A DNA stretch of 64,000 nucleotides, from positions 34,523-98,522 of the IMG/VR virus record IMGVR_UViG_3300037589_000184. One strand, given 5' to 3'. Under the pieces are notes generated by a model. It was not told the DNA's origin, did not search any database, and saw only the letters and a program-made list of their open reading frames with translations. Made by a program: the position numbers and the translations under genes. The DNA is from a virus. Its lineage: Duplodnaviria; Heunggongvirae; Uroviricota; Caudoviricetes. Below, one piece after another: positions 3,731-57,400 of this stretch (positions are counted from its first letter, which is position 1; every line of letters starts with the position of its first letter).

Positions 3731-4672
3731 GAATATAGGGGATAAAGCATACTTGGATGGATACAAGTAAAATATTTCCGTGCCTTAGGGTTTGAGGTGT
3801 CGCTGAGGTCTTTGACCAACTGGTGCGAATAAATTTGATGTACAAAAACCCATTCCTCTATTTTAGGACAAAGGTTAAACCTTGAAACCTTATAGTATAC
3901 GAAGCCGTGGAAACGGGGCACAGTATACTATGAAAGAAAGATAGATGAAAAATGTAAAGTTCGAGCATAGATAATATGTCATGAGGGTGCAACAACAGAC
4001 AAGGTCTTCTATGACCGTGTCTAGGGCCTCGATGTATTACATATAAATCTATTCAGTGTACCCCTGATATGCCATTTGAGGGGGAATAAGATAAGCCAGT
4101 AGCCATTGAGGATACTAGCCTATACGACTACAGGAACCTGCTATTCAGGTAAATGGTATCCAATATCATGGTTGTACGGATTGTAGTTGGTCCAGTACAA
4201 TGACCCTGTCTTTGATACACTGAGGAGTTGGCAGCTAGACTTCCATATTTCAGCTATCACACTTTAGTGTTGTGGTGTAAGCCAATATGGTGGTGCTAAA
4301 CAATATTATGGAATCCCCCTCCTGTCCCAGTCCCGTGAAGAACGGACCTGTATAATTACCGTGGTGACCAGATGTGAAGATTGGAAACTTGACATCCCTC
4401 CGGTGCCGGGGCAACACGTGGATAGGGGGGTTATGGAACATGGGTGTCCCATAATTGTCGTTGACAGCATTTTCGGAATGTAGGCCCCGAAGGTGTGGGA
4501 CATCCCATCTTTTTATGTCGGCACCATATCGTGAGCGTGGTGGGCATTGGATATGAAGGACAAAAAGTGAAGTCTTGGATGTGCAGTACAACTGGTCCAA
4601 GGAGGTGCTGTACTACCATTGTCCTTCTATTTTATGTATCTTTGGAATGTTTAACCAAAACATTAGAAAGAT

Positions 4673-5083: not shown

Positions 5084-5731
5084 ATGGCACAGAAAGCAAG
5101 AATACTAGGTTATCTTGGTGATGATAGGTTTGTTATCGGGTTAAAGGAAAACCAACCTTCCGATGGATCCCCTGATCCCATAAAGATAAAATTGGCCCAT
5201 GACTATGTGGAAATAGAGGGTATGTCCAACTTTATGGTAGATGATAGCTCCGATTACAAATCAAGTAATGGAGTATCCAATTGGGTAAAAAGCCGGGCAT
5301 CCATCCAAATAGGTATCCGGGAGTTCAAGGATATCCTTTTGCCCCTGTTCATGAACGCCCATTATCTCTCTGATGAACATTTTAAGATGAGAAAACATGA
5401 GGAGGATGACAAATATTTTGAACGATATGGTCTGGAAAGTCCTAGATGGACAAAGGGAGAAGAATATCCTCCATATACTTTCAATTCCAGTGTGATAGAG
5501 TTCTTCAATGAGAGGACACAACAACAGATGGTGACTTTTCGTAGGGCACACAGTCTTGTATATGAGACTGTCACAAAGGATCTTTTTGATCTTATCCGGC
5601 CACAACTGGAACTCTATAAATCCGAGTGGGACATGAAAAAAGTGATCGGGACCACTGTGATCGAAGAAGAAAAGGTGGATGACAGTGCCGAGATTGTCAA
5701 CGAGGATGAAAACATCCCACCGGAAGCATAG
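5084..5731 (+). CDS. hypothetical protein
   Basis: 215-aa ORF with an ATG start, ending in TAG. Confidence 0.4.
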   Translation: MAQKARILGYLGDDRFVIGLKENQPSDGSPDPIKIKLAHDYVEIEGMSNFMVDDSSDYKSSNGVSNWVKSRASIQIGIREFKDILLPLFMNAHYLSDEHFKMRKHEEDDKYFERYGLESPRWTKGEEYPPYTFNSSVIEFFNERTQQQMVTFRRAHSLVYETVTKDLFDLIRPQLELYKSEWDMKKVIGTTVIEEEKVDDSAEIVNEDENIPPEA

Positions 5732-9565: not shown

Positions 9566-9950
9566 GGGGCATACAGGCTTTGACAGGTGATATGACCTAT
9601 AATGTTCAGCCAAGAGAGATAACTTGTAAAAACTAAGGTGAATTTACTTAAACGGCAACGTAGAAGATCAAATTCAGGCCAACATGGACACAGTCCATGC
9701 AATTTTGGGAAGCGAAGTAGAAGTAGCTGCCTAAATTTGGCAAGGCCCGTACAAGGTCTCTAGGCATCGGCCATTGTACAATTTTAGGTTAAGTGAGTCA
9801 GGCCACTCGACTGGAAGTGGACAGAGGTTTCCATCTTTACTCTGGATCGTACAAGGATGGTGGTGGAACCCAACTTCGGTTGGCCCCTAAGCTGTATAAA
9901 ACATTGTAGTGATTACATTTTGGACCGGGGTTCGATTCCCCGATGCTCCA
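9566..9950 (+). ncRNA. ssrA: tmRNA (ssrA-like transfer-messenger RNA), phage-encoded
   Basis: 5' GGGGCAT pairs with 3' ATGCTCC to form a 7-bp acceptor stem carrying the G3:U70 wobble that is the alanine identity element, followed by discriminator A. The T-arm is CGGGG-TTCGATT-CCCCG. The 5' D-analog GGCTTTGACAGG resembles E. coli GGATTCGACGGG. The overall 3' end GGACCGGGGTTCGATTCCCCGATGCTCCA is close to E. coli GGACGCGGGTTCAACTCCCGCCAGCTCCA. An internal ORF ends ...GSEVEVAA-TAA at 9732-9734. Length is about 385 nt. Confidence 0.6.
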
Positions 9951-10481
9951 CAAAATATGGTGAATGTACATCATCATAGGAGAAAATTGAAGCAGAACAA
10001 AAAGCATAGGGAAGTTCGAAGAAGTTGACGCAGAGAAAGAACAGGCATCCGGATTGACTTTTGAACATCAATGGAACGTGGCTACTTACCACTTCAATTT
10101 TCTCACCTTATTAAAAGTCTGGCCACCCTTTAGGCTGAGTCCAACTTACGTTAGAGTAAGAAGAGGATAGTAATCGGGTGGCACAGCAACAATAGTGAAG
10201 ACCATATCGATCTGATGATACGTAAGCGAGGCTTTCATCTTAACTGGATTGAACTCGATGTGCATGGCAAGCCGTTAAACTCCTCCTCAGGATCAGCACC
10301 CCGAACATCACAATGATCTAGGTCTTTGTGGTCTTCCTATAAAGTATTCAAGATCAAACAGTCATCTGGGACACACTCAGTACCCATAATATAAGACAGC
10401 TTATTGTGGGGAACGTGGACACAGTGGCCAGTGTCATGTCCCGGATACTGTTTGTGTTATTATGGACAGTTCTGTCCTTAT

Positions 10482-41516: not shown

Positions 41517-41588
41517 GGCCCGTTAGCTCAGTGGCTAGAGCAATGGTCTCTAAAACCGTGGTCATGGGTTCAATTCCCATACGGGCCT
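41517..41588 (+). tRNA. tRNA with anticodon CUA (amber/UAG suppressor tRNA); amino-acid identity undetermined
   Basis: Full cloverleaf: acceptor GGCCCGT/ACGGGCC, U8, D-stem GCTC/GAGC with an AGTGGCTA loop, anticodon stem ATGGT/ACCGT, loop C-U-CUA-A-A (U33, anticodon CUA, A37), 4-nt variable loop, T-stem ATGGG/CCCAT with loop TTCAATT, and discriminator U. Confidence 0.85.
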
Positions 41589-41661
41589 CTTAACATTAAT
41601 TAATTGTATTATGAAAAAAGATACAGAATACTAGGTAAACAAAGGGGACTTTATCACAGTA

Positions 41662-41964
41662 GTGGTAAAGGAACACCTCACACCGGGCCAAAAAGTGGTC
41701 CAGACCTCACATGCACTTGCTGACTTTGCAGTGCAGTTTCCGCAAGAATTTACATCATGGCAGAGCAGTTCCAACTATCTATGTTGTCTGGAACAGCCTG
41801 ATTTTAAGTTTGATAGGCTCATAGATCTTCTTGAGCTGTTAGAGATCAAGTATTCCGTCTTCTACGAACCTGACATTGACCAAAATACTGCCGTTGCAGT
41901 AGGACCATTGAACAGGACAGAACACAGAAAAATCTTTAAAAATTTTAAACTTACATTATCATGA
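41662..41964 (+). CDS. peptidyl-tRNA hydrolase, PTH2 family
   Basis: PGQKVVQTSHALADFA matches the PTH2 GK[IV]AAQ.SHA motif. C-terminus NTAVAVGPL matches the T[VI]L.IGP motif. The track start is a GTG, and an in-frame TAG at 41632 limits any N-terminal extension. Confidence 0.55.
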   Translation: MVKEHLTPGQKVVQTSHALADFAVQFPQEFTSWQSSSNYLCCLEQPDFKFDRLIDLLELLEIKYSVFYEPDIDQNTAVAVGPLNRTEHRKIFKNFKLTLS

Positions 41965-42245
41965 AAAAATTCGAATTGATCAGAACGGAGGTAAAAAGAG
42001 TGGCAGAACAACAGAGACCACTCAAGTTGCAAAGGAAGACCAAGACCTTTAAAGGAAAAAGGGAGGTCGAGGCACCAAGGGCGGCATGGCTCGTAAAGGA
42101 CAACAAAACCTATTTGATGCATCTTTACCATGCCTATGCAAAGATGAGGGGAATCGAGCTTGAGGCCCCGAAGAAAAAAGGGCTTTCAGCCGATATGGTA
42201 AGAAAGCTCATGGAGAAATTTGCTCCGAAGGTAGAAACAGTTTAA
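41961..42245 (+). CDS. hypothetical basic protein
   Basis: 94-aa ORF. Confidence 0.3.
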   Translation: MKKFELIRTEVKRVAEQQRPLKLQRKTKTFKGKREVEAPRAAWLVKDNKTYLMHLYHAYAKMRGIELEAPKKKGLSADMVRKLMEKFAPKVETV

Positions 42246-42268: not shown

Positions 42269-42308
42269 CGGGCCAAGGGAATTTACGGGACCTTGGCCCG
42301 TTCTTTTT
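42269..42308 (+). terminator. rho-independent terminator hairpin
   Basis: 10-bp stem CGGGCCAAGG/CCTTGGCCCG followed by TTCTTTTT. Confidence 0.5.
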
Positions 42309-42323
42309 AATGAACAATGTTAC

Positions 42324-43728: not shown

Positions 43729-43757
43729 AAGGTAGGTTTCGGCCTACCTTTTTTTAA
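43729..43757. terminator. bidirectional rho-independent terminator between convergent blocks
   Basis: AAGGTAGG-TTTCGG-CCTACCTT flanked by an A-tract and TTTTTT. It overlaps the stops of the last + gene (43730) and of the 1549-aa - gene (43754). Confidence 0.55.
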
Positions 43758-46700
43758 TCGCTACCAATATATTGCTGCTCGTCATCGTATAGGTACCTTG
43801 CAGGATATGGGGCAGTTGCATTTATCTCCTTGTTGATGAGCTTTGTGATCACGGCATCAAGTTCCTTTTGTGTGGGGATGTCCTGATTGTCGTAATCAAA
43901 TTCCGATTTCCAATATTCCAACAGTTTTGACCTCTCTATGCTCCTGTCCACCCTTGCTTTCTTTCTGTCCTTCTTATAGTCCGTGAAGAACCAAGAATCC
44001 ATGTTCTCATTGGGATCGAACTCCCTTTCCAACATCCTCTCGAAACCAAGTGAACCCTGTCCTATGGAGGGCACGAATGTCCTTTGCAGTTCATTGAGCA
44101 ACCTTGATTCCCCTGCATTTGGCCCGGTGGAAATCTCATCAAGTCCCTGTGATGCCTTATTGATGGCACCACTGATTCCCTTTATCCTTTCCAACCAAGT
44201 CATAAGTGAAGTGGTGGTCATGGAATTGTACATTGCATCCGGGTTCATGTACAGGGTGACATCATTGAGTGTCTTGCTGATCTGGTTCTCCATAAGGTTG
44301 TAGAACTGTTTCTCCTGCTCTGTCCTTGAGTTTTTTCCAAGATATGGATTGGGCACCCCTTTTGCCAAGGTCTTCGGCTCCTCGTCATCATTTGGCCCGA
44401 AGGAGGCCTTTATGATGATCTTTGCAAGGGCAAGCCCCAATAGTACCGAGATTTCGGTCACCAGTGACTGTAGGTTCTGCCTTTCGGCCTCCGATACCTG
44501 TAACCTGTCAAATTGGTGGGCCTTTACGATATCCTTGCCCGTGATGGTGTTGATGGGGAGGCCTATCATTTTTTTCAGGATTGCAATACCTGCATCCGCA
44601 AGCTGTTCTGCAATGAGGAGTTCCTCCCCTCCTGCCCTTGCCTTCCTGTTCAGGTATACATTTCCTGCAATTGCCCCCAGTGCAAGTGCACCTCCCATTC
44701 CCACTCCGAGTCCCATCACACCTGCTGCCATGAATCCTGTCGTGAACAGTGCAGTGGATGCAGTGGATGTCTTGGGAGAGGTGTAGGCACCTGTATAGAT
44801 ACCATCAAAATTCTCCTTGTCAAGTGCAAGGTCCCTTTGGCCATAGGCAAATCTTTGCCAGATCTGGTTGGGGAGCCAAGTCTTAAAGGTCATTACTGTC
44901 TTTCCAAGATTACTGGACTTTATGTACGTGGAACCTGTACGTGAGTAGTCCCCGTTGAGGATGGCTATCATCTCACTTATCCTCGATTTTATATCAGCGG
45001 ACCTATCATTTGAAAAGTCCTGCCAAGTTGCCCTGTTATCAGGGGTATCGAATTCCGGTTTTAGGACTATTTCCCCGTTCTCATCTATTCTATGTGCAGG
45101 GAATGATGTCCCATCGAACACTGGAACTTGGTTTCCATCCTTGTCAATGACCCTCTCGTCCATCAACATGGACAATATCTGTGGGGTCTGGTTATGCCAT
45201 TCCGTATACTCTGTAAGGTAGAATGGATTGAGCTTCTTCACTGTTCCCGTAAATCCGGAATCGTTCCTTGCCCTGTCGATCTCATTGGTGGCATCCTGTA
45301 TGATGTTGAGCTTGTCGATGAAGAGCCTTGTCTTCTTGATCTCGTTCTTGTACTTGTTGTTCCCGGGGATATGTCGTAATCCCTTCTTGTTTATAAAGGA
45401 GTTGGACACTGTAAAGTTCCCTGCCGTCCAATACTTGCCGGTATCATTGATGGCACCGGAGTACCAACCTTGGAACCTGTTGGTAATGTTGGAAGGGATG
45501 TTCCAAGCAAGTCCCACGAATATCCTGAACTTGTTGAACACTGCATTGTACATCTCGGCAAGTGTATAGTTCTTTCCAAGATTCGCAATGGTGTCGTCCA
45601 CTTCAAAGAGTTCGGTCTCATACCTGTCCCTTTGTTGCTCGGTGATCTCACTGCTCTCCAATAGTGAGGACAGCCTTTTCTTTTCCTCCTGTGCCGCTTT
45701 CAGGTATTCCTTCTCGTTTTTGTCATAGAACTTTCCGAATGTGACCCAGTATTCCTTGTCCTCAAGGTTCATCACATTTTTGTTGAACCAGTGGTCCATT
45801 CTTTTATTGGCCCTCATCCTCTTGTCCTGTATCCCGTTCTCCCTAGACCTTGACCTGATGGAATTGGCAATCTTGCTCACCGGATCAAAGCTGTTCTTCT
45901 TTTCAAGACGGATGTTCTCGTACAGGTTCTTGAAGACGGATATCTTTGGCAATGAATCCCTTTGTGATTTGTACTCGGACACCATGTCCAGATAGGCCCT
46001 GATGATCACGGGAAGGTTGAATGACTGCTCCATGGCCACATCATGGGTGACCTCCTCCCTCAATTTATCCAACACCTTTCTTGGTATAGGTTTGTTACCA
46101 TATTCCTGTTTCAGTTTCAGGAGTTCGGTCTTATAGCGAAGACCTACCCTATCCTGTATGTGCTGTATGTTCGAGTTGTTGATATCCTCTATATCACTGG
46201 CCTTGATGTCCCTTATCCTAGTGGAGAAAAGGTTGCCTATGGTCTCCCTTGTATTGGACAACAGTGTGGAGAATTTCGAGGCAGTGCCCATTTCCTTGTC
46301 CAACAGGATATCCGTGGTGAACTTCTGCATGTACGGCAAAGAACTGTGCACCAGTTTTTTAGAGGCATCACTCAAGGTCATGTTCATAAAGGTGACACTA
46401 TCATTGAGGATTTCCCAAAATTCCAATAGATCTTGGTCCTCCTTTATCTGGTTGAAATTGGGATCAAAATATCCACTGTCACTGCTTGTCCTGTTCCCTG
46501 AATTGAAGTCCACCTTTTCAACCGTGGACTTTGGGTAGAACACATTGTACTTTAGGTGTGACTGATATTGGTTGCCCGTGTTGCCTATGGTATAGTCCAC
46601 CCTTCCCTGTTGTCCCCTTTTATGGGAGGACAGGAACTCAAAGGGGCTGTTCCTCATCAATGTGATGTTGAGGGAGTGCTGTACATTATCAGGGAGGTCG

Positions 46701-48403
46701 GATACCTTTGCAACACCATGGGAGGCCAACAGTGTGGAGATCTCATGTGTGGCCATGTCCACAAAATCCTCAAGCTTTTCGGCCTGCTCCTCGACCAATC
46801 TGTCATAGTTCTGCCTACCTATCTTGGATATGGTCTCCTGTCTATAGTCATCACTGGCTGAAAAATGTGGTGCAAATCTCTGGAACCGGGCATCCTCTGC
46901 AAGTTCCGGGATTTTGGTAATATCAAGGAACTCCGTGTTGTCATTGAGCCAAGAATATTTTTCCACAAGGGAGGTGTTCACCTCTTCCCAGTTCCTTGCC
47001 ATAATGGCCTCACTGTACTTTTTGTTGAACTTACGGAAAAAATTTGCCTGTGCTTTGTACCATTTGTTTGAGTAGGGGCCTACCAATCTTCCTGTCCTGT
47101 TACCATTCTCCGTTTTCTGGTAGAACAAATCATAGCTCACTTCGGAAAAGAGGGAGTTCAGGGGTCTCCAAGATATTCCATATCCCTTTTCCAAAAGCTT
47201 CCTCTTTACCTTGGGGACAAGTGCATTCATCTTCTGTACCTGTTCTGCGGCATAGGACTTGTTCTTGCTCCTACTGTTCTCAAGTTCCAACTTTATAAGC
47301 TGCCCCAACAATGAGTCCTGTCTTGTGAACTGTTTGTCTATGGTCCCGAAGAACTGTGATACCACACCTATGTCATCCTTGTCACTTAGGATCTCGTCCC
47401 TTATCTCCTTTGCCTGTTGTCCGGGGAATATGCTCTTTACCTTTGGTGAGGACTCTATAAGGTCCAACAGATATTTTTTCTTTGCATCGTACACCTTTGT
47501 CTTATGCTCGGTGACAGTGGCCCTCAACTTGTCAAGGGTCTTCTTTATCATGGGGTCCAGTTTTGTGGGGTCGGAGGTGTCCACGAACTGGTTCAATGTG
47601 TTCGATGAGGAATAGTCCGATATGATATCAAAATAGGATATCATGTACTCTGCCGTATGTATGTCCTCTATGGCAGGCCTGTCACCGGACAATAGTTCGT
47701 TTATAAGGGAAAGGTCGTCATTGAAGATGGACATGGTGGTCTCGAAGATATTGTCGGAATTGGTAAGGTCATGTACCTCTTTTTCCAGTCTCTCGGCAAT
47801 CTTCCTTACTTTCTGTATCTCCGATTTTATATCCTTCCCGGATTCATACTTTCTCCTTGCCAATAGGGTCTCCAATCTGGTGGTCACCTTTTTCAGGAGG
47901 TTTTTCTTTGCATTCAGGTAGTCGTTGAAATTTGTACTGTCCTGTCCATTGTCAAACGAGGGGAGCATATCGGAATCCATTTCCATGGCATGTTGCATGT
48001 CCTCCACTGTGGGGTACACCTGTCCGGCATAGACATATTCATTGGAGAGTGTCCTTTGTTCGTACATCTCGGCAAGGCTTTTCTCATTGTCCAGTTTCTG
48101 CTCATAGGCCTTCAACAGTACGGGAGGAAAATTGACTTCCAGACCAACGGTATTGCCAAGTTCCAACAACCTTGTCCAACCTCCGTACCTTTTGTCACCA
48201 AAGGTTTCCTCTGACCATTTCTCCACGGCCTGCTGCTTTTTTTGTGCTACCGCAAGTGCCTGCTCCTTGGTCCTGATCTTTTTCCCCGTCAGTTTAAAGG
48301 TGGCAACATTCCCCTCGAACACTATGTTCCTTGCCTTCCCCTTTATCAGTTCCCTTACCTTTTGGGTCCCACGGTCCTTGATTTCATTTATGTTGCATGC
48401 CAT
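43754..48403 (-). CDS. giant virion-associated protein (1549 aa) with Gly-zipper membrane segment
   Basis: Uninterrupted 4.65-kb ORF. Its ATG is 1 nt after the upstream gene's TGA. It has a central hydrophobic Gly-zipper, LFTTGFMAAGVMGLGVGMGGALALGAIAG. Confidence 0.6.
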   Translation of the reverse strand: MACNINEIKDRGTQKVRELIKGKARNIVFEGNVATFKLTGKKIRTKEQALAVAQKKQQAVEKWSEETFGDKRYGGWTRLLELGNTVGLEVNFPPVLLKAYEQKLDNEKSLAEMYEQRTLSNEYVYAGQVYPTVEDMQHAMEMDSDMLPSFDNGQDSTNFNDYLNAKKNLLKKVTTRLETLLARRKYESGKDIKSEIQKVRKIAERLEKEVHDLTNSDNIFETTMSIFNDDLSLINELLSGDRPAIEDIHTAEYMISYFDIISDYSSSNTLNQFVDTSDPTKLDPMIKKTLDKLRATVTEHKTKVYDAKKKYLLDLIESSPKVKSIFPGQQAKEIRDEILSDKDDIGVVSQFFGTIDKQFTRQDSLLGQLIKLELENSRSKNKSYAAEQVQKMNALVPKVKRKLLEKGYGISWRPLNSLFSEVSYDLFYQKTENGNRTGRLVGPYSNKWYKAQANFFRKFNKKYSEAIMARNWEEVNTSLVEKYSWLNDNTEFLDITKIPELAEDARFQRFAPHFSASDDYRQETISKIGRQNYDRLVEEQAEKLEDFVDMATHEISTLLASHGVAKVSDLPDNVQHSLNITLMRNSPFEFLSSHKRGQQGRVDYTIGNTGNQYQSHLKYNVFYPKSTVEKVDFNSGNRTSSDSGYFDPNFNQIKEDQDLLEFWEILNDSVTFMNMTLSDASKKLVHSSLPYMQKFTTDILLDKEMGTASKFSTLLSNTRETIGNLFSTRIRDIKASDIEDINNSNIQHIQDRVGLRYKTELLKLKQEYGNKPIPRKVLDKLREEVTHDVAMEQSFNLPVIIRAYLDMVSEYKSQRDSLPKISVFKNLYENIRLEKKNSFDPVSKIANSIRSRSRENGIQDKRMRANKRMDHWFNKNVMNLEDKEYWVTFGKFYDKNEKEYLKAAQEEKKRLSSLLESSEITEQQRDRYETELFEVDDTIANLGKNYTLAEMYNAVFNKFRIFVGLAWNIPSNITNRFQGWYSGAINDTGKYWTAGNFTVSNSFINKKGLRHIPGNNKYKNEIKKTRLFIDKLNIIQDATNEIDRARNDSGFTGTVKKLNPFYLTEYTEWHNQTPQILSMLMDERVIDKDGNQVPVFDGTSFPAHRIDENGEIVLKPEFDTPDNRATWQDFSNDRSADIKSRISEMIAILNGDYSRTGSTYIKSSNLGKTVMTFKTWLPNQIWQRFAYGQRDLALDKENFDGIYTGAYTSPKTSTASTALFTTGFMAAGVMGLGVGMGGALALGAIAGNVYLNRKARAGGEELLIAEQLADAGIAILKKMIGLPINTITGKDIVKAHQFDRLQVSEAERQNLQSLVTEISVLLGLALAKIIIKASFGPNDDEEPKTLAKGVPNPYLGKNSRTEQEKQFYNLMENQISKTLNDVTLYMNPDAMYNSMTTTSLMTWLERIKGISGAINKASQGLDEISTGPNAGESRLLNELQRTFVPSIGQGSLGFERMLEREFDPNENMDSWFFTDYKKDRKKARVDRSIERSKLLEYWKSEFDYDNQDIPTQKELDAVITKLINKEINATAPYPARYLYDDEQQYIGSD

Positions 48404-48404
48404 A

Positions 48405-51400
48405 TCAAATACAATCTGGTAGTTTCTTATGATTCGATTCAGGAAGCAGGTCCGTCACCGGTTCCTGTGGTGTCTGTGTATCAGGATCGAAGTCCGTGTC
48501 CACATTCTTCTTGAATGTATCAAAGGTATTGTTTTTTTGTCTTTTGAGGGTCTCTTCCTCTATAAAAACAAGGGTGTCCAACAATGCGGACTCTGCAAGT
48601 GAGCCTGATTTTATATCTGGGTTCAACGCTCTCAATATCCTCATAACTGCCTCCCTGAATTTATCAACGAGGGTCATATTGGACCTTTTGTACATTACCT
48701 TTGACATTTCCTCTTGGAACTTGGGTTCCGTAAGGGCAGTGGTAACAAATTCAAATATGTTCACGGAACCATATATATAGGCATCGTTCTCGTTGAACTC
48801 CGTGGGCAATCCAGGTTTTCTGTCATCCAGTTTCTTTTTCAGTACCTCTGTGGCCTCTGCCCCTATATGTTTCTTGAATTCGTTGAACACAAGGTGCAGA
48901 TTGGTCACATATCCGGGAACGGTGATGTCCGATCTCAATGTATTGCCGTCACTCTCATAGTATTTCCTCAGTTCCGTAGATGTTACCGAATGTACCGATT
49001 CATGTACAAAGGTACGGGCAGTCTTTTCTGGCCCCTTCATAAGGGAGTTGTCCACGTCAAGATAAATGGTGTCCTCTTTCCTGTTGTACCTCCCCGAGGC
49101 ATTGGTGCCCCTCCTTACCTTTATGTTCGTACTCTCCTTCAATACGGGAATCAGTGCCCTTGCGGCCTCTGGAAGGTTCTTGTACCTCTCGAACTTTGTG
49201 TTGGAGATCATTTCCATCACATCGGCAGGAAGACTGTCATCCGTTATGTCAAAAGGGTTGGTCAACATCTTGGCAGTGGCCTTCTTTATATTTGGCTCTT
49301 TTTTCGGCCTTGTGTCCACATTGTCCAAAAGGGACTTTGCATCCTGTTCATTGTACTGGTACTCCGACATACCATGTGTTCCCAAGATGGATATCCTTTT
49401 ATAAAGGGAGTTGCCCTGATGCTCAAACAAATGGAACTTGTCCTGTTTTCTTTTGCTCTTGGTGGGTACCCTCATCGATATGAACTTTGGCCTGTCATCA
49501 CTGTTCAAAATGAACGATGTCATCTTACTGCCCTTTCCCTCCTGTGGGGAAAACAGTTGTTTCTGTTGTTCCTTACTATACTGCCTTGCCTTTTCGGGAA
49601 AATGCTGTATATACTGTTTGGTGAACAGGTGGGTACTGTTTTCAGTGGTCTCCCTGTGCCCCAATACTTTTTGGAATATATCGGGCCTTCTGTTAGAGTT
49701 ATAGGACTGCATCACATTGGCAGCGGAAACAAACCTGTCCCCTGATCTTACGCCCACGGACTCAAGATACTCTATGGGCACATATTTTATGAACTGGATG
49801 GCCTCCTGTATCCCTCCCTCTATGTAGGCATAGGTTATAAGATCCTGTGCAAGTTCCCTAGTGGAATATGGTGATCCATTGAGGTCTGGCAATGGCCTGT
49901 CCTCCACTATCAGTTCGGCAAAGGAATTGTAAAGGTACTCCTCATCAAAATTGTCGTTGGATGTATTGTTGAACTTTATCAATGAAGGTTCCCCCATATT
50001 GCCCAGTGAGTATGAGAACTTGTTCAACAACCTGTTTTCCTTTACTGCATTTGTCCCCTGTGAGAATCCCCCGAACTTTTTGCCCCTGTTGGTGATGTCA
50101 TTGAGGTACCTTGCCAAGGAAACATTGGTGTCCGAGTCCATAAACAATCTTTTTCTTTCATTGTTGGCAGTATCGGTGAACAATCCATTGTTCTTCCTTG
50201 AATAGATATACTTCTTGATTTCCCTGATGACTTCCTGTCTTCCCTCGATTTCCTTAAAGCTGCTCTCTGTGTCCGTGTTCGAGACAATAAGGGTCTCATT
50301 GACCACTGAGTTGAAATATCTGTCATTATATGGGAAATATGAGTTCCAGAGACTGTTGCCCAATCTTGTGCCCTCAAGGACTATCTGTCCCTGTGGTGTC
50401 CTTGCCTGCATATAATTGTCACCGACTATATGGTATCCCTCTGGGGCCTCCCCTCCCTCTATCGGCCTACTGTCACCTATAAGGGAGAAGGCATTGGCCA
50501 CTCTCTGGTTGTTGGGGAGATCTGCAAGGTTGCGGAAAAGTACAGCGGATTCCACTATGGACTTTCCTAGATTGTTGGTATTCAGTACAGACTGTAACCT
50601 TGATATGCTCCTTGCATAGGTATCGAGTTCAAGGAACTTTGCCAATGCGGCCAACTGTACCTTTTTGTCCTCTCCGAAGGAACTTATTCCCTCCAACATA
50701 TTATCCCCCGTCAACATGGTGGACCAATCCACTTCCTCGTATGTATCGGATGTCAATAGACTGCCCTCCGAATATACAAGGTTTCCATTTGAATATGTTG
50801 ACACAAGGTCTGCCACTGTCCTTTCCTGTAGGTCACGGACATAGTCGGACACTATCCCCTTCCCGTTCTCCATACGGGATACATATTCCCTCAATATGGG
50901 CTGTGAGAGCAACAGATAGGAAATGGAGTTCCCATTGCTGTCCTTGTCAAAACCAAGTGCAGTGAGCAGGGAATCCACATTGATGGTAGTGGAGTTTATG
51001 TTCACCCTACCAAGTATCTGTTCCTTCTCATTGTCAGTGGCAGTGTTCTGCCTTTCGGCAAACACTTCTGCAACGGATCTTTCCCCATCCAATGTCCTTT
51101 CCCTTCCAAGTGTGCCATCCGATCTTAGATTGCCCATCACCACTTCTTTTGGAACCATTTCATCCTCTCCTACATTCTCCATCAATCTCAATGGATCCGG
51201 AACCTGTTGTGAAAGTCCGTGGAAGGTCACATAGTTTGAGTAGACACCAATGGCAAGCTTACCTGCCGCACCAAGTCCCATCTTCTTTTTCTGGTACTCA
51301 TCGGACAACATGGTAAAGGACGTAACATCCTGATTATCAGACAATGCTTCTATCATATCTGCCTGTCCGGATGCAAACTTCATTGAAAGTACCTTATTGA

Positions 51401-54400
51401 TCTTCTTCTGAACCTCTGTGTCCGGATTGGAGAACACGGCCATGTGGATCTTTATGAACTCGTTCTCAAGGAGCTTCTCATCGAACTTTTCATTTACAAG
51501 GTCTATCTTCTCCTGTATGTTGGTCAACTTATCATTTATTGCCTCTTCATAGGCATCCCCCAACATTGCCCTCATCAACCTGTCCTCTGGGCTGTCCTTT
51601 ATCAATTGCTCCTTTTCAAGGGCATCCAACAGACCTTTCAACCTGCTTTCCCTGTGCTCCTCGGAGAGTATGGAAATCTTGCCATTGGTCTCCACTATGT
51701 GGTTCAACTGATATGCGGTCTCCTTATCGATATCATAGTCAAGTCCCTTCTGTTTTGTAAAGTTTTTTGGTACTATCATAAGATCCCCTACCTCTGGTGG
51801 GAGAATACCCACTATCTCTATGTTGGATCCGGACACATGTGAGGATGTGGGGGTACGGAAACTGAAATTTCTGAGCAATGCCGGGTCCACCATATCCATG
51901 TTGAGACCAAATGTGCCATCTTCGTTTTCCACAAGATAGACATAAGCACCATTCTTTTTCTGGTATAGGTCCATAAGGTTTCCATTGGCATCCTTGAACT
52001 TTGATGGCATCAATACCTGTGCAGGCTGCATCTTTCCATCCACTTCTTTTGCCCCTTGTAGCTCCTGTCCATTCCACCCCTGTAACCTTATTATACGGGA
52101 CCTGTCCATATCATCGAGTGTGGAGAGTGTTGCAAAACCTGTCTCAGATCCTGCAACAAAGGAATTTCCGGGTATCTTGAAATTCATCAACCTGTTGGAC
52201 ACAATGGAATTCAAAAGGGATTCGTACCTATTACTGTTGGTGGAGAGCCATAATGGGACCTTGAATTCCTGATAGGTGTTTCCATTGATATCCGCTTTCT
52301 CCTCAAGTTCCAATCCCTTGATATCCTGTATGGGGTATCCCCTTTTCTCGGCCTCGGATTTCAAAAGGGACTGTAACTTTTCCATTGTCACAGAGCTGTC
52401 CACTGGCTCCCCGTTGTCATCCAATCCAAGCTCACGGAAAAGTTTTTTTCTTTTTGAAGCAACCAGATCCGTGAACACTGAGTTGTACCTGTCATATAGC
52501 TGTTGGCCATCAAGTTCTTCTCCATTGTACGCAAACCCCTTTGCCTTCATGACCCCATCACCGAACAACAATTTGAACATCTGTGTCCCCATTGAAACCT
52601 TATCTTCCTTGACCTGATCGGATTTGAAGGGCACATCCTGCTGTATCCTGAAACTGTCCCTTGATAGTTCCAACATGGTCTCCTCTATGTCCTCAAGTTC
52701 ATCGGAGAAGATATCCTTTGCATTTGACATTGCCCCTACTTTATTGGCAGTCTGGTAGGACAATCTCACGGGTTTTCCATGTTTGGCCTCAAGTTCCTCC
52801 ATCTTCTCCCTGACCCTGTCAAGTGAGGTGCCTGCCGTAAGTTGTGGGATCAGGGGGAATGAGGAGGACTTTATGTACACTGTCCTCATCACATCCTGTA
52901 CAGGATCATATACCTGCCCGGTGAACACGGGCTTTATGGGCTGTAATACAAGCCCCATCTGTTCCTTTGTCAAAGGTCTCTCCGCCAAGAGTGCATCCTT
53001 TATTTCCGACATCTGGGAATCGGACAGCCTTCCTTGGTTCTGTAGTATATGTACATGTTCCCAAACAGTGGTATATTCCTGTGCATCCGTGGACTCTATG
53101 TCAAAGTAATCCGAAAGTTGTGGAAACGTGTCGGCAAGAGTGTCCCTTACCTTTGCGGCCTCTTCCTTTCTTCCATTTGACACAAGGTCCGAGTAGGTCT
53201 GCAACAACGGTCTTGCTTTTTGTACCCCTTCCTGCCCATAGAACAGGGATACCAGATATTCGGAGTTTTCCGAGATGTCCACGGAATCCTTTGCAAACAG
53301 TTGTATGTAGGCATCATTGAGGGAATTGGCCAACTTGTTCCCGGGGGCTATCAAGAGGGCCAACCTCTTTCCAATATTGGTACCTATCTTCTTTGAGGTA
53401 TCTATATAGAACTGGTCATTTGCGGAATGTACCAAAGGTCTGATGTTCAGTTTCAGTTCATTGTACATTTCACGGCTTATGGCACCTGTGGACACAAGAC
53501 CATCGATTCCCTTCAAGAAACTTGAATGGTCGGCATAATGGGAGAAAAGTCCCTCTTTTCCATAGGCCTGTGCAATTGCCCTTATCCTTTGGTTGTCCAC
53601 TCCCAGTTTTGAGAACAGTTTATCCTGTGAATAAAGGGCGGGATCCCCTGCAAAAAGATAGAAGGAATTTGCATTTGCCACCATGGAATTGAGCACAAAA
53701 TCATAGGTTCCCAACCTGAACTTTTTATCAAGGTCCCCCTTGCCCATGGAAAGATACTTTTTGTCGAACAGATCTAAGGATGTGATCTTTCCACTGCTGT
53801 CCCTTTCGACAAGGCCATTTTCCCAAAGGGCCATTTTTTCGTTCACCAATTCGGATATAGTGGTCTCCATGGTGTCCAACATCTGCTCTTTGAAGTTCTG
53901 TTCCACATAGTCCAAAGTGACCTTATCGGAAACGGAGATGTATTTTATCAACCTTATCCCACCCTTGTCCTTCACATTGTTGAGCTGTGGCAATAGGTGG
54001 AACATCTGGGCACCGAGGTCATAGCCCTCTATATCGGTCCCATTGACATCTTTTGAAAACTTCAACATACGTTTCAGTTCCGGCAATATCAATTGGTCGT
54101 ACATAAGCTCCCTCAATGACTGTGACAACTTTACATTACCGGTAAGGTCATCTACCAAAAATGCTGAATCGGCCTCTTCCAAAAAGTTGAACACCCCTGT
54201 CTTGAGCATCAACATCTGGGATTTGTCCGACATTGTGGGAAGGAACATGTTGGCCATCCTCATTCCATAACCCTTGTACTTTCTTTTTATGGTGCCCTGT
54301 TGTGTATCCTGAAACCCCGTAAGCTTTGCAAGATCATGGTCCATGGTGTTGAGGTCGGTGATGGAAGAAAAATTGGAAGATGATTTTCCCAATTGTTTCA

Positions 54401-57400
54401 ATGCCGTGATACCATTATGACTGATGCCGAACTTCTCGGCAAAATTTGGCTCGTTCTGCAAAAGGTCGAGTACCAATGAATTGGATGAGAAGGAAATGTT
54501 CCCGAACTCCCCCAACAATCTTTTATCCGTAAGTGCAGATCTCTTTAGATCGTTTACCCTGTCCGTCACAAATTTTGTGGGGACCTGTCCGGATACCTGT
54601 TTGCCCCCGTCCCTAAAAGTAAGGGTCATTGATTGTGGGGTATACTTTGCCTCTATCTTGGAGAGTGTGTTCAATACCCCTTGCATATCGGTAAAGGGGT
54701 GGTTCTTCTCATTTTCCTCAAACTCCGTGTTCCTTACATGATCCTTGGTGATATTGTCCAGATATTCCCTGAGCAGGGAGAAGATGCCAGTTTTGGTATA
54801 GAACTGCTCGTCGTATTTTTTATATGAACTGTCATAATAGAACTTTCCGTCCTTTAGTTCCCCCCAAGTCTGGTCCGAGACCTCCAATCCAAAATTTGAT
54901 AGCCATTCCCTTATCCTTATATCGTCCACCAAATGTTTTTCGGCCCCCCAAGAATCATAGGTATCCAACAGCTTCTTTGCAAATACCTTGTTGATGGTGG
55001 CAGTTTCCTTGCTCTGGTCAACGAGTTTGGTGACCATGAAATTGTTCCTCCATTTATCCCTTACCAATCTTGTGACCTCGTTTGCATTGGTATCGAATAT
55101 CTTCAATGTTGTCCCATTGTTACCAGTACTGTACATGGCAAACTTCATCTGCAACGCATGTTTTGTGTAGTTGTACACAAATTCCCTTTTTATCTGGTCA
55201 TCGGCAGCTTCCAATTTTTCGATCAATTCCGATACCCATGGCTCGGTCTGTTCCATTTCCCTCAGTTTCCCCAACATCGTGTGGTAATCGGACTGTATGT
55301 CCACTCCTGTACCAAAGTATTGGGCCACACTGTTGTACACATCGTTGAAGCCTATATAGGTGGGGAGTCCCAAAAAGCCCCTTTTAATGTTGCCATTGGG
55401 AGAGTACTTTCTTATCCCGGCCATGAACCTTCTCAATCTATAGGAGGTCTTCTGTTTTCCATTTTCCTCTATGGAGGATTTGTTGTAGTCCTTTTCCCTT
55501 ATGGACATATCCTCCTCAAGTTTTGCCTCATCGTCCAAGGTCTCGGTGATGCCCGTATATTTGCCTACTTTCTGTAATGCCTTGTCCTCTATGGATTTCC
55601 AGTTGTCCTCTATGCTCTGATACACATCAAGTGCATTTCTGTAATCCTTGATGAGCTTTGAGAGCCTTTCCTGTTGGGAGGGGTTTGCATCATAAAGTTC
55701 CTGCAATTTTGGCAAAACCTCCTGTATCTGTTTTTTTGAAGATCCCGTGATGGTGCTATAGGATCCCTTGAGTTCTTCCAACAACAACTTCTTGTTTATC
55801 TTTGCACCATATTTGAGGTCCACACTGGTCAGTAGATTATTGAACAGGAAGTCCACTATCTGGCTTTCCTGTAATATGGAAAGTCCCGGGGCAATGTTGA
55901 ATATGTTCGAGAGCCTATCGACACTGTCCAGTTCGGCAGGCAGTTCATCCATATCCTCGGAAAGGTTGAAACCTATGTCCTTGATAAGATCCTCATAGCC
56001 CTTGATCGTTCCCTCTATGTCATCTTCCACTGTGGCAGGGATTTCCGGAACCTGTACCTCAGAAGATGCTCTTTCTTTGAAATCCTCTATCGGGGCCTGT
56101 TCGGTATCAATGTTGAAAGTGACCACTGGTTGTATGGAGGTTGCATATATAGGATTCTCCTGTGTACCAACATTGAAGGATTTTATGTTGGTGGTGAGGA
56201 CCGTCTTCAAATAGTCGGGGTACCCCATCTCCATATCCTCCACAATACCATCCTTTATATTGGCCATGGACATCTTTCTTGAAATGAACCTCAACTGTGT
56301 CAGTTGTCTGAAACCTTCCTCATTTGATGTGAACAGGGTCTTTCCATATTGGGTCAGGGTGTTTGAGTTCCCCTGTGGTACACCATAGGCATTCATAAGG
56401 TCAACGGCATCCCTACCTATCCTAATATCGGTACCGGTGATCTTTTTCACGTCTTCAACTATTTTAGAGGCCTTTTTTTCCTCCATATCATAAGGGGTCC
56501 CCGCAACATACTGTTCATACATGGATCTTACCCTTTCATTGTCAAGGTTCAACCTTGCCTGTGCGGCCCATATCCACCTAAGGGTCTCAAGGGCCTCTGT
56601 ATGTATACCATTATTACCAAGGTTGTTCCTTCTGGTCACAGGAAATGCCCTCCATGTCTCTTTCCCCGTTTCCGGGTCCGTACCTATTCTCCTGATGTCC
56701 CAAGTATGTCCATCGGTCCTATATCTACTTTTTTCGTTTATCTGTTTGAAATCCTTTGCCCTATCGTTGACCAACATCCTGTTCTCGTTCTCAAATGGGA
56801 CATTATAATCAAGTTCAAGTGAGGACCCTCTTTGTACGGCAATGATGGACTGTGGATTTGCTTCCGAGATGGATATCTCGGGCCTGTCCATGGGTATCCT
56901 ATAAAAGGCCCCCTCCCTTTTGGAGGTCACCTTCAATGTGGAGGTACTGCCGTCAATAATGCTGTTCCTCAATGTCGATACATTGTCCTTGCCCTTCTGT
57001 ATCAATTCGGCATGTGATGGGGAAATGTTCGAAAGGTCCACAGTATCCATGTCACTGGTAGGGTCGGACACATTGAAAGGGTTGTACCAGTCCACATCAT
57101 GTATGTATGCCATGGGCACACCTTTTTCATTAAGGGCAAAGATCGGCACCCTGTCCCTGAACTCCTGTGTATCCCTGAAATTTCTGTCGGACAGTTCCCT
57201 CTCAGAGACCCAGTCCGAAAAGGGTTTTACGATTGCTGAACCATCCGGGTTCCTGCCAACTGTGAGCTTTATCTTTTGCCACATGTCCTCCGGGGCCACC
57301 ATTACCTGTATGCTGCTGCCCTCATTGAACTTATCAGGGTGTAAAAGATCGGAGAAGTCCACTATGCTGTCGGCATCTATGTTGAGCCTTCCATCATCTG

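What the first reader, a model, noticed from the sequence alone, without database searches (positions are those of the whole stretch)
41517..41588. Phage-encoded amber-suppressor tRNA (anticodon CUA) although the window itself uses TAG as a normal stop
The sequence folds into a textbook cloverleaf: a 7-bp acceptor stem, U8, D-arm with GG, a 5-bp anticodon stem, a U33-CUA-A37 loop, a GTTCAATTCC T-arm and a discriminator base. The anticodon CUA decodes UAG. Suppressor tRNAs are a hallmark of phages that recode TAG, as in crAss-like and other gut or marine phages. However, every gene in this 64-kb window is intact under the standard code, including 4.6-kb and 12.5-kb ORFs. Several + strand genes terminate with TAG, at 5731, 8960, 9493, 11366, 19724, 21483 and 24813. 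So the tRNA may serve recoded late genes outside this window, act on host translation, or produce programmed C-terminal extensions.
Basis: seen in the sequence. Interest (0 to 1): 0.8.

Follow-up and report, generated by a model that had tools for sequence, protein, structure and literature searches.

The report
Suppressor tRNA gating its neighbour gene
A virus of bacteria that otherwise uses the normal genetic code carries a stop-codon-reading tRNA placed next to a tRNA-recycling enzyme gene that has a matching stop codon near its start, an arrangement found in dozens of unrelated phages that looks like a built-in translational switch nobody seems to have described.

Summary
The tRNA is real (Rfam 67.5 bits; ARAGORN anticodon CUA). 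It is the only tRNA in a complete, circular ~98.3-kb crAss-like phage genome that I reassembled. That genome uses the standard code: coding density is 96% and all late genes are intact. This refutes "recoded late genes outside the window".

Twenty-two nt downstream, a PTH2-like peptidyl-tRNA hydrolase gene starts at ATG 41611 and has an in-frame TAG at codon 8 (41632-41634). Gene callers hide this by starting at a GTG inside the conserved first strand.

The same short-leader-stop-ORF layout occurs in 58 of 78 dereplicated family lineages. These include crAss-like phages, jumbo phages and the cultured Tenacibaculum phage pT24; mycobacteriophage Bxz1 is ambiguous. The leader stop matches the nearby suppressor's anticodon: TAG with CUA 47 times, TAA with UUA 3 times in three separate clades, and no TAA with a CUA-only tRNA (Fisher p = 2e-4).

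Best reading: a suppressor-gated translation cassette of tRNA, PTH2-like gene and a ~95-aa partner gene. Read-through, the inserted amino acid and the physiological purpose are inferred, not shown. I found no prior description in the searchable literature.

The parts
41517..41588 (+). tRNA with anticodon CUA (amber suppressor); discriminator U at 41588; no encoded CCA. It is the only tRNA in the complete phage genome.
   Evidence: ARAGORN; Rfam RF00005 67.5 bits; fold z=-3.4; identical in independent assemblies L007 and L008.
41589..41610 (+). 22-nt A/T-rich spacer between the tRNA 3' end and the leader ATG. Co-transcription of the tRNA and the mRNA is inferred.
   Evidence: Read from the sequence; no sigma-70-like promoter match in between.
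41611..41631 (+). Seven-codon leader (MKKDTEY) of the PTH2-like ORF, starting at the only ATG in this reading frame.
   Evidence: One search shows no ATG anywhere in the 109 codons after the TAG. MKKD-type leaders recur in L051, L053 and L059.
41632..41634 (+). In-frame TAG (codon 8), the gate codon, cognate to the CUA anticodon of the adjacent tRNA.
   Evidence: The position is conserved, 13-18 residues (mostly 17) before the invariant Gly in 54 of 58 gated lineages. The stop type covaries with the anticodon.
41635..41964 (+). PTH2-like peptidyl-tRNA hydrolase domain (109 aa plus TGA stop). Public gene calls start at GTG 41662, inside the conserved first beta-strand (DFITVVVK).
   Evidence: Pfam PF01981 E=4.7e-4, covering profile 6-114 of 115 with the extended N-terminus; 9 of 10 family members hit PF01981, best E=3.7e-6. 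The family profile against PDB hits only peptidyl-tRNA hydrolase 24bt_A, E=3.8e-6, and the alignment includes the first strand. Distant homologs in cluster C mycobacteriophages are annotated 'peptidyl tRNA hydrolase'.
41961..42245 (+). 94-aa basic partner ORF overlapping the PTH2-like stop by 4 nt (ATGA); function unknown; probably translationally coupled.
   Evidence: Homolog follows the PTH2-like gene in 14 of 14 close lineages with downstream sequence. No Pfam, NCBIfam or PDB match.
42285..42311 (+). Terminator-like hairpin (ACGGG-ACCTTGG-CCCGT) followed by a T-run; probable 3' end of the cassette transcript.
   Evidence: consensus match only.
9566..9953 (+). Phage-encoded tmRNA (tag peptide GNVEDQIQANMDTVHAILGSEVEVAA). 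Possibly functionally related as ribosome rescue after read-through; it is not physically part of the cassette.
   Evidence: ARAGORN; Rfam RF00023 65.7 bits against a gathering score of 47.

Best explanation
The element is a functional amber-suppressor tRNA that forms a compact cassette with its neighbour. The cassette is tRNA(CUA), a 22-nt spacer, an ORF that starts at ATG 41611, runs 7 codons, meets an in-frame UAG and continues into a PTH2-like peptidyl-tRNA hydrolase, then an overlapping 94-aa ORF and a terminator-like hairpin. Full-length hydrolase, including its first beta-strand, can only be made when the UAG is decoded by the suppressor in competition with RF1. Hydrolase output, and by coupling that of the 94-aa protein, is therefore set by the level of active, charged suppressor tRNA. 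The stop lies in the unstructured N-terminal tail, so the identity of the inserted residue should not matter: the codon works as a gate, not as coding information.

Shown: the tRNA gene; the standard code of the whole genome; the conserved leader stop; the co-localisation; and the covariation of stop type with anticodon across many phage lineages.

Inferred: read-through itself; co-transcription; hydrolase activity; the amino acid inserted (Gln or Lys by E. coli amber-suppressor rules, from my own knowledge).

My preferred purpose (about 45%) is a feed-forward safety circuit. Suppression makes ribosomes run past stops, which produces non-stop complexes and dropped peptidyl-tRNA. The phage would make its extra hydrolase in proportion to the suppression actually achieved. 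The tmRNA in this genome and in Bxz1-type phages fits that idea. A negative-feedback 'governor', in which the hydrolase acts on the suppressor's own acylated form, is the main alternative (about 20%).
For: The tRNA is real and is the only one in the genome.

The genome is not recoded. The PTH2-like gene is the only real gene in it with a short ATG leader, a TAG and then the ORF, and it has no ATG after the TAG.

The same layout occurs in L051/52, L049/50, L047/48, L054/55, L053, L056-L062 and L069-L071. It also occurs in distant homologs in pT24, LR756500 and LR745206; Bxz1 is ambiguous. A second IMG/VR subclade of 80 loci shows it too.

After dereplication there are 78 lineages, of which 58 are gated: 55 with TAG, 3 with TAA, none with TGA. 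TAG with CUA occurs 47 times, TAA with UUA 3 times, TAA with CUA-only never, and TAG with UUA-only once, which is compatible by wobble (Fisher p=1.9e-4). A suppressor lies within the locus in 51 of 58 gated lineages against 7 of 20 ungated (p=1.3e-5).

The three TAA/UUA lineages (L053, L056, L099) each have TAG/CUA lineages as nearest relatives.

TAG opens only 16% of comparable frames in the carrier loci, against 17 of 19 leaders in the first survey (p=4e-12).

In 9 of 19 lineages there is no ATG, GTG or TTG between the stop and the conserved Gly.

PTH2 homology is supported. The cassette is identical in independent assemblies.

In three of three checked cases, database proteins show 'Q' where the DNA has TAG.
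Against: There is no experimental evidence of read-through, and no N-terminal peptide or tRNA charging data.

The codon after the stop is often ATT, ATA, GTA, ATG or GTG, so termination followed by re-initiation at a near-cognate start is conceivable. In L047 and Bxz1 a canonical start directly follows the TAG.

Seven gated lineages show no suppressor within the fetched +/-2.5 kb, and three ungated ones (L136, L144, L148) have a CUA tRNA nearby.

The lineages are phylogenetically related, so the p-values overstate independence. The firm count is three stop/anticodon switches.

Our protein's own Pfam score (20.8 bits) is below the gathering cut-off of 23, and the AlphaFold model was poor (pLDDT 56).

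Gating alone does not explain why a phage would need a suppressor in the first place.
Confidence: 0.75

Rival explanations
1. Incipient or pre-emergent code change. The suppressor was acquired by a standard-code phage and has no dedicated client yet; it merely opens the path to later TAG recoding. This is the explanation given in the literature for such cases.
For: Yutin et al. (PMC7886860) and Borges et al. (10.1101/2021.08.26.457843) describe suppressor tRNAs in standard-code crAss-like and Agate phages and interpret them this way. TAG is the rarest stop in this genome, about 11% of genes.
Against: The one in-frame TAG in the genome lies 43 nt from the tRNA, in a gene family that carries the same leader stop in 58 of 78 lineages with matching anticodons. 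That is a long-conserved arrangement, not a fresh acquisition. GC content is 44%, not the low GC proposed to precede recoding. The two ideas are compatible, though: the cassette could be the vehicle that seeds recoding.
Confidence: 0.1
2. The leader is an ordinary upstream mini-ORF. Ribosomes terminate at the stop and re-initiate on the hydrolase ORF at an adjacent canonical or near-cognate start. tRNA proximity arises only because PTH2-like genes live in tRNA clusters.
For: The codon after the stop is ATG or GTG in L047 and Bxz1, and ATT, ATA or GTA in many others. Many carriers have large tRNA arrays.
Against: This does not explain why 55 of 58 leader stops are TAG when TAG opens only 16% of comparable frames. 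It does not explain why the only TAA leaders sit next to UUA tRNAs in three separate clades. In several carrier loci the suppressor is the only tRNA present; this is genome-wide for our phage and holds within the fetched loci for L051, L061, L062 and many loci.
Confidence: 0.1
3. The tRNA's main role is as a host-directed weapon. It causes read-through of host TAG stops to damage host proteins, including defence proteins, and the neighbouring gene is incidental.
For: Proposed for crAss-like phages by Yutin et al.. The phage's own TAG-terminated genes would gain only short tails of 1-35 codons.
Against: There is no direct evidence, and it does not account for the conserved cognate stop in the neighbouring gene. 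It is compatible with the best explanation if the gated hydrolase is the safety device for such a weapon.
Confidence: 0.05
4. One reading: the tRNA serves TAG-recoded late genes elsewhere in the genome, or produces programmed C-terminal extensions of TAG-terminated genes.
For: Recoded crAss-like phages exist. Eleven genes or so end in TAG.
Against: The complete genome is assembled and every late gene is intact under code 11. Read-through tails are short and not protein-like. The only in-frame neighbour pair separated by TAG, the 112-aa and 100-aa genes, is at the chance level seen for TGA and TAA and looks like two separate genes.
Confidence: 0.02

Closest known systems
Phage suppressor-tRNA-based stop-codon recoding (code 15 TAG->Gln in crAss-like, Lak and other gut phages; Borges et al., Yutin et al., Peters et al.)
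   Same: A phage-encoded tRNA with anticodon CUA in a crAss-like phage that infects a standard-code host. Translation of a phage gene is proposed to depend on it, giving post-transcriptional control.
   Different: Here the genome is standard-code. Exactly one gene carries the in-frame stop, at a fixed leader position before the folded domain, and it is physically linked to the tRNA. The arrangement is conserved across unrelated phage groups, and an ochre (TAA/UUA) version exists. In recoded phages many late structural and lysis genes carry scattered in-frame stops that stand for a specific amino acid.
prfB (RF2) autoregulation by an early in-frame UGA with +1 frameshift
   Same: A translation-termination-related gene whose own synthesis is gated by an in-frame stop codon near the 5' end. 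Output depends on competition between termination and a recoding event.
   Different: prfB uses frameshifting and senses its own product, RF2. Here the bypass is by a dedicated cis-encoded suppressor tRNA, the frame is kept, and whether the product feeds back on the gate is unknown.
Suppressor tRNAs of standard-code phages with no known target (for example the two CUA tRNAs of Xanthomonas jumbo phage XacN1, and tRNA-Sup of pT24)
   Same: CUA tRNA in a standard-code phage. XacN1 tRNA-Sup 1 is 82% identical to ours, with the same acceptor stem and anticodon loop. The XacN1 authors could not find target genes (PMC5852040).
   Different: In our phage and in pT24 a target can now be proposed. In XacN1 the adjacent ORF088 is not PTH2-like and has no leader stop. 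I did not examine XacN1's annotated peptidyl-tRNA hydrolase, ORF295.
Canonical PTH2 peptidyl-tRNA hydrolases (Pfam PF01981; archaeal and eukaryotic Pth2)
   Same: Domain-length homology, with invariant Lys in G-x-K-x-x-Q, His, and Asp in E-P-D.
   Different: This is a divergent phage clade with its own SNYLCCLE motif and sub-threshold Pfam scores. Activity and substrate are untested. Cellular PTH2 genes are not known to me to carry leader stop codons.

Membership tests
tRNA (Rfam RF00005) | Covariance-model score above the gathering threshold over the full cloverleaf | tested here: met
   67.5 bits against 29, model positions 1-71 of 71; ARAGORN agrees.
Nonsense (amber) suppressor tRNA | Positions 34-36 are CUA in a 7-nt anticodon loop with U33 and a purine at 37 | tested here: met
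   Loop C32-U33-C34-U35-A36-A37-A38 in the Rfam alignment; ARAGORN gives anticodon cta at position 34.
Nonsense (amber) suppressor tRNA | Is aminoacylated and decodes UAG on the ribosome | not testable with these tools
   Indirect support only: a conserved cognate in-frame stop in the neighbouring gene, and covariation of stop with anticodon.
tRNA-Pyl (ARAGORN's label) | Atypical pyrrolysine tRNA architecture (6-bp anticodon stem, 3-nt variable loop, small D-loop lacking GG, no T-psi-C consensus) | tested here: not met
   Canonical 5-bp anticodon stem, 4-nt variable loop GGUC, D-loop AGUGGCUA with GG, T-loop UUCAAUU. The description of Pyl features is from my own knowledge.
Stop-codon-recoded (code 15) phage genome | Low coding density under code 11 that is restored by reading TAG as sense; many genes with in-frame TAG | tested here: not met
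   Coding fraction 0.964 (code 11) against 0.969 (TAG as sense), the same as the TGA and TAA controls; no real ORF merges; late genes intact.
crAss-like phages (Crassvirales-type) | Hallmark virion proteins (crAss capsid, Ring_1, Ring_2, muzzle) and a genome of about 100 kb with opposed replication and structural blocks | tested here: met
   Precomputed Pfam hits PF23898 Crass_capsid, PF24228 Ring_1, PF25702 Ring_2 and PF25731 crAss_MUZ on the same contig; 98,284-bp circular genome; strand blocks.
PTH2 peptidyl-tRNA hydrolase (PF01981) | Significant profile match over the whole domain | tested here: inconclusive
   Our protein scores 20.8 bits, E=4.7e-4, below the cut-off of 23, but covers profile 6-114 of 115. 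Nine of 10 family members match, best E=3.7e-6. The family profile against PDB hits only a peptidyl-tRNA hydrolase, E=3.8e-6.
PTH2 peptidyl-tRNA hydrolase (PF01981) | Hydrolyses the ester bond of peptidyl-tRNA | not testable with these tools
   Only conservation of the Lys, His and Asp positions.
Suppressor-gated PTH2-like cassette (proposed here) | Short ATG leader, then an in-frame stop 13-18 residues (mostly 17) before the invariant Gly, cognate to a suppressor tRNA in the same locus | tested here: met
   Window: a 7-codon leader, TAG 17 residues before the Gly, CUA tRNA 43 nt upstream of the TAG. The pattern is present in 58 of 78 lineages.

The most novel reading that the evidence does not exclude
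The tRNA, stop-gated PTH2-like gene and 95-aa gene form a mobile, self-regulating 'suppression module'. The hydrolase and its partner would act on the suppressor's own acylated or peptidyl form, or on the products of read-through. The level of stop-codon read-through in an infected cell would then be set homeostatically. In this reading the module is the portable device that lets standard-code phages tolerate a suppressor, and it would be the evolutionary seed from which full TAG or TAA recoding of late genes repeatedly arises.
Probability: 0.2. Interest if true: 0.9.

Novelty: new variant of a known kind. Interest (0 to 1): 0.8.

Why it matters
Suppressor tRNAs in phages that are not recoded have been a loose end. 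The XacN1 authors found no targets for theirs, and crAss-like cases were put down to incipient code change. This result gives such suppressors a concrete, conserved, cis-linked client: a translation-quality-control enzyme whose synthesis is gated by the cognate stop codon.

If confirmed, it is a natural two-component translational switch spread across crAss-like, jumbo and possibly mycobacterial phages. The family has about 1,600 clusters at 50% identity. It would link nonsense suppression to peptidyl-tRNA recycling and suggest how phages tolerate a suppressor before recoding evolves. It is directly testable in at least one cultured system (pT24 on Tenacibaculum; Bxz1-type phages on M. smegmatis, where the leader stop is ambiguous).

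There is also a practical consequence. Gene callers systematically mis-start this gene. Some public translations put Q at the single gated TAG (seen on the short contigs L054/L055, L069 and L070/L071), which suggests an alternative code table was applied to those contigs.

Tried and rejected
**Finding the source and the tRNA's relatives**
- Megablast of the region against GenBank phages found nothing.
- An exact search and a degenerate search for the tRNA in IMG/VR found nothing. Two searches of 185,579 GTDB species genomes also found nothing, so no cellular donor was identified.
- The gene immediately upstream (153 aa) has no relatives in IMG/VR.
- The syntenic regions of three crAss-like relatives (L044-L046) and 13 other related loci have no tRNA, so the tRNA is lineage-specific in this phage group.
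- The single metagenome scan, with a chimeric query, showed the source genome is not in that collection.
- A chimeric query of four flanking proteins in the search for homologous proteins returned nothing and wasted one search.

**Candidates for recoding that I rejected**
- The frame 3839-4534 with 7 in-frame TAGs does not translate to anything protein-like and lies in a structured non-coding gap.
- The 112-aa-TAG-100-aa in-frame pair in the lysis region is at the chance level seen for TGA and TAA neighbours, and the second gene has its own ATG.
- Read-through tails of TAG-terminated genes are short and not protein-like.

**Other dead ends**
- XacN1 ORF088, next to its two CUA tRNAs, is not PTH2-like.
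- L127 (TGA with two UCA tRNAs) is ambiguous and was not counted.
- The AlphaFold2 model of the post-TAG protein had pLDDT 56, too poor for a fold search.
- The inserted amino acid could not be inferred. Every apparent 'Q' homolog I could check was a TAG in the DNA.
- The 94-aa partner has no Pfam, NCBIfam or PDB match.
- Five literature searches and four papers read turned up no description of a stop-gated PTH2-like gene. The library holds only open-access papers and bioRxiv preprints.

Full report
**1. The observation**

ARAGORN finds two RNA genes in the window: a tRNA at 41517-41589 (+) with anticodon CUA, and a tmRNA at 9566-9951. Rfam confirms both. The tRNA scores 67.5 bits against a gathering score of 29, over the full model length. 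It has a canonical cloverleaf, the anticodon loop C-U-CUA-A-A, discriminator U and no encoded CCA. Its fold is more stable than shuffled sequences, z=-3.4. ARAGORN's 'Pyl' label only reflects the anticodon, because the architecture is canonical.

**2. What genome this is**

The + strand up to about 43.6 kb is a replication module: Dda-like helicase, DNA polymerase, primase, a second helicase and RNR. The - strand from 43754 holds giant proteins.

Exact-protein look-ups placed the window on 98.3-98.5-kb contigs from several JGI and SRA samples. These contigs carry Pfam crAss Ring_1, Ring_2, muzzle and capsid domains. I reached the last pieces by getting protein ids from the listing of cluster members.

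The overlapping loci assemble without gaps into JGI contig Ga0394807_000311 (98,411 bp). It has a 127-bp terminal overlap, so the circular genome is 98,284 bp, and it differs from the window at one base. ARAGORN on the whole genome finds only the CUA tRNA and the tmRNA. TerL relatives at 45-67% identity come largely from marine samples such as TARA.

**3. Is the phage recoded? No.**

- With a greedy ORF cover, the coding fraction is 0.964 under code 11, 0.969 with TAG as sense, 0.965 with TGA as sense and 0.966 with TAA as sense.
- TerL (718 aa), the likely portal (799 aa), the major capsid protein (495 aa), Ring_1/2, the muzzle protein (1843 aa) and the 485-, 734-, 4176- and 1549-aa proteins are all called intact.
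- TAG ends about 11 genes, including Ring_1.
- Read-through tails are 1-35 codons and look random.
- The only coding-strand ORF pair that would merge through a TAG is a 112-aa and a 100-aa gene near the amidase. This is no more frequent than the equivalent TGA and TAA cases, and they look like two genes.
- A 232-codon frame with seven TAGs (3839-4534) is not protein-like.

**4. The neighbour gene**

The 100-aa ORF that public pipelines call at 41662-41964 (GTG start) gave a borderline Pfam PTH2 hit. Its only PDB hit was a peptidyl-tRNA hydrolase.

Its nine close homologs include three with precomputed PF01981. They lie in tRNA regions of other phages, with a CUA tRNA just upstream in several and a conserved ~95-aa ORF just downstream.

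Reading upstream in frame shows that the real ORF starts at ATG 41611, 22 nt after the tRNA. It encodes MKKDTEY, then TAG (41632-41634), then VNKGDFITVVVKEHLTPGQKVVQ.... The called GTG lies inside the conserved first strand. No ATG exists anywhere after the TAG in this ORF, and no other real gene in the genome has this layout.

With the extended N-terminus, the Pfam match reaches profile position 6 of 115. Nine of 10 family members hit PF01981. The family profile matches solved peptidyl-tRNA hydrolase 24bt_A at E=3.8e-6, including the first strand. Distant homologs in cluster C mycobacteriophages are annotated as peptidyl tRNA hydrolase.

**5. Conservation and covariation**

The same leader-stop layout is present in every close lineage examined:

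| Lineage | Leader and stop | Adjacent or nearby suppressor |
|---|---|---|
| L051/52 | MKKDFDGI-TAG | CUA |
| L049/50 | MKNM-TAG | CUA |
| L047/48 | MTKTGI-TAG | 66-nt CUA tRNA seen only by Rfam |
| L054/55 | MKKGGTGI-TAG | CUA |
| L057-L062 | TAG | CUA |
| L069 | MK-TAG | none on the 766-bp contig |
| L070/71 | MT-TAG | CUA |
| L053 | MKKDLTMG-TAA | **UUA** |
| L056 | MKKG-TAA | **UUA** |

Three database proteins that appeared to have Gln at this position turned out to have TAG in the DNA.

Distant homologs at about 30-35% identity also have it: the cultured Tenacibaculum phage pT24 (MK-TAG, with tRNA-CUA 2.6 kb upstream), and the huge phages LR756500 and LR745206. Mycobacteriophage Bxz1 is ambiguous, because TAG directly precedes the annotated GTG start, with a CUA tRNA 0.3 kb downstream.

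A second IMG/VR survey with a different subclade gave 80 more loci. Pooling and dereplicating at about 90% identity gives 78 lineages:

- 58 are gated: 55 with TAG, 3 with TAA, none with TGA.
- The stop lies 13-18 residues, mostly 17, before the invariant Gly in 54 of the 58.
- Leaders are mostly 2-3 codons.
- Among gated lineages with a suppressor in the fetched locus: TAG with CUA 47, TAG with UUA-only 1 (compatible by wobble), TAA with CUA-only 0, TAA with UUA 3 (Fisher p=1.9e-4).
- A suppressor is in the locus for 51 of 58 gated lineages against 7 of 20 ungated (p=1.3e-5).

The three TAA/UUA lineages each have TAG/CUA lineages as nearest relatives: L053 with L057, L056 with L058, and L099 with L103. 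That points to three independent coordinated switches.

TAG opens only 16% of comparable frames in the carrier loci. The suppressor tRNAs themselves are very divergent. What is conserved is the match between anticodon and leader stop. The wider family has 1,606 clusters at 50% identity with E<=1e-3, and many representatives begin 'M-x(1-4)-Q-(I/V)'. Ungated members with ordinary starts also exist.

**6. Mechanism**

*Shown:* a genuine CUA tRNA; a standard-code genome; a conserved, position-constrained in-frame stop in the adjacent PTH2-like gene; and covariation of that stop with the anticodon.

*Inferred:*
- The tRNA and the mRNA are co-transcribed, given the 22-nt spacer and a terminator-like hairpin at 42285-42301.
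- The suppressor is charged by a host synthetase. By E. coli amber-suppressor rules this would be Gln or Lys (my own knowledge). The tRNA body is closest to Ile2/Met/Lys-type tRNAs and to XacN1 tRNA-Sup.
- It reads the leader UAG in competition with RF1.
- Hydrolase output, and that of the coupled 94-aa ORF, therefore tracks suppressor activity.

Because the stop precedes the folded domain, the inserted residue is probably irrelevant, so the codon acts as a gate.

The purpose I favour is a feed-forward safety circuit that supplies peptidyl-tRNA recycling capacity in proportion to read-through. The tmRNA in this phage and in Bxz1-type phages (PMC10281172) fits this. A negative-feedback governor acting on the suppressor itself is the main alternative. 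Neither is tested.

**7. Comparison with what is known**

Suppressor tRNAs in standard-code phages are documented. They have been explained as incipient recoding (Yutin et al.; Borges et al.) or left without targets (XacN1).

The present arrangement works like phage stop-codon recoding, because a phage suppressor enables translation of a phage gene. It also recalls prfB autoregulation, where an early in-frame stop gates a termination-related gene. It differs from both: there is one dedicated, cis-linked client, a fixed leader position, it occurs in at least one fully standard-code genome (ours; pT24 is annotated under the standard code), and both amber and ochre versions exist.

I found no description of it in the searchable library. 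That library excludes most subscription journals.

**8. Caveats**

- There is no expression data.
- Near-cognate or canonical starts follow the stop in some lineages.
- Some gated loci lack a suppressor within the fetched 2.5-kb flanks, and three ungated loci have one.
- The lineages are not independent, so the p-values are only indicative.
- The PTH2 assignment rests on weak but consistent homology, and the AlphaFold model was poor.
- I could not assess whether the other carrier phages are recoded, apart from pT24, which is annotated densely under the standard code.

**Verdict**

The real finding is a suppressor-gated PTH2-like cassette: a new variant of phage nonsense suppression, widespread and testable.

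Noticed in passing
window 9566-9953 (+): Phage-encoded tmRNA (ARAGORN; Rfam RF00023 65.7 bits against a gathering score of 47) with an unusually long tag peptide, GNVEDQIQANMDTVHAILGSEVEVAA. Together with the suppressor tRNA and the PTH2-like gene, the phage carries three elements linked to translation termination or ribosome rescue. Cluster C mycobacteriophages, which have a distant PTH2-like homolog and a CUA tRNA, also encode a tmRNA (PMC10281172).
   Followed up: partly
window 3731-4672 (folded 3760-4640, +): A gene-free gap of about 940 bp in the early region. The 881-nt stretch folds at -282 kcal/mol against -248 +/- 7 for shuffles (z=-4.7), with no Rfam match. It may be a large structured RNA or an origin region.
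   Followed up: partly
L040 3310-3954 (genome-equivalent coordinates 92730-93374, - strand, outside the window): A Cys-rich 112-aa gene ends in TAG and is followed, one codon later and in frame, by a 100-aa gene with a GCGC motif, just upstream of the Amidase_3 lysis gene. Suppression would fuse them. I judged this to be chance, but it lies in the lysis region where Borges et al. report recoded stops to be enriched.
   Followed up: partly
L054/L055, L069, L070/L071 (proteins P0136, P0129, P0130): Public database translations of these short contigs show Q where the DNA has TAG. This suggests the source pipelines applied a TAG=Gln table to contigs whose only in-frame TAG is the leader stop of this gene. 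A single gated gene may therefore cause false 'code 15' calls on short contigs.
   Followed up: partly
L047 5766-5831: A 66-nt tRNA with a CUA-type loop (UUCUAAA) and an apparently reduced D-arm. Rfam detects it (33.2 bits) but ARAGORN misses it. Non-canonical suppressors like this may explain some of the 'gated but no suppressor found' loci.
   Followed up: partly
L064 / L068 (Tenacibaculum phage pT24, LC168164.1 about 194090-195036): In pT24 the PTH2-like domain continues without a stop into a longer C-terminal region (314 aa after the TAG). The GenBank CDS BPT24_235 starts at 194218, downstream of the N-terminal part of the domain. The gene is probably mis-annotated because of the leader TAG.
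   Followed up: no
L065 2148-2220 (Mycobacterium phage Bxz1, 95436-95509): The feature annotated 'tRNA-OTHER, tRNA-like product' is called by ARAGORN as a tRNA with anticodon CUA. It lies 0.3 kb downstream of gp154, the PTH2-like gene, whose annotated GTG start is immediately preceded by ATG-TAG.
   Followed up: partly
window 63116-63141 (-): The 485-aa late gene (63116-64573) ends in TAG and overlaps the start of the 734-aa gene by 26 nt. Read-through would add 19 codons. I did not examine whether this matters.
   Followed up: no
window 43754-60935 (-): Two giant adjacent genes (1549 aa and 4176 aa) with no Pfam domain on record, downstream of the muzzle protein and the next two late genes (485 and 734 aa). 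By position they may correspond to the virion-packaged RNA polymerase or cargo proteins of crAss-like phages (my own knowledge); I did not test this.
   Followed up: no
L127 (IMGVR_UViG_3300032782_000001): A GC-rich huge-phage locus where the PTH2-like gene is preceded by two in-frame TGAs and two UCA (opal) tRNAs lie 2.5 kb downstream. It could be an opal version of the gate or simply a TGA-recoded phage.
   Followed up: partly
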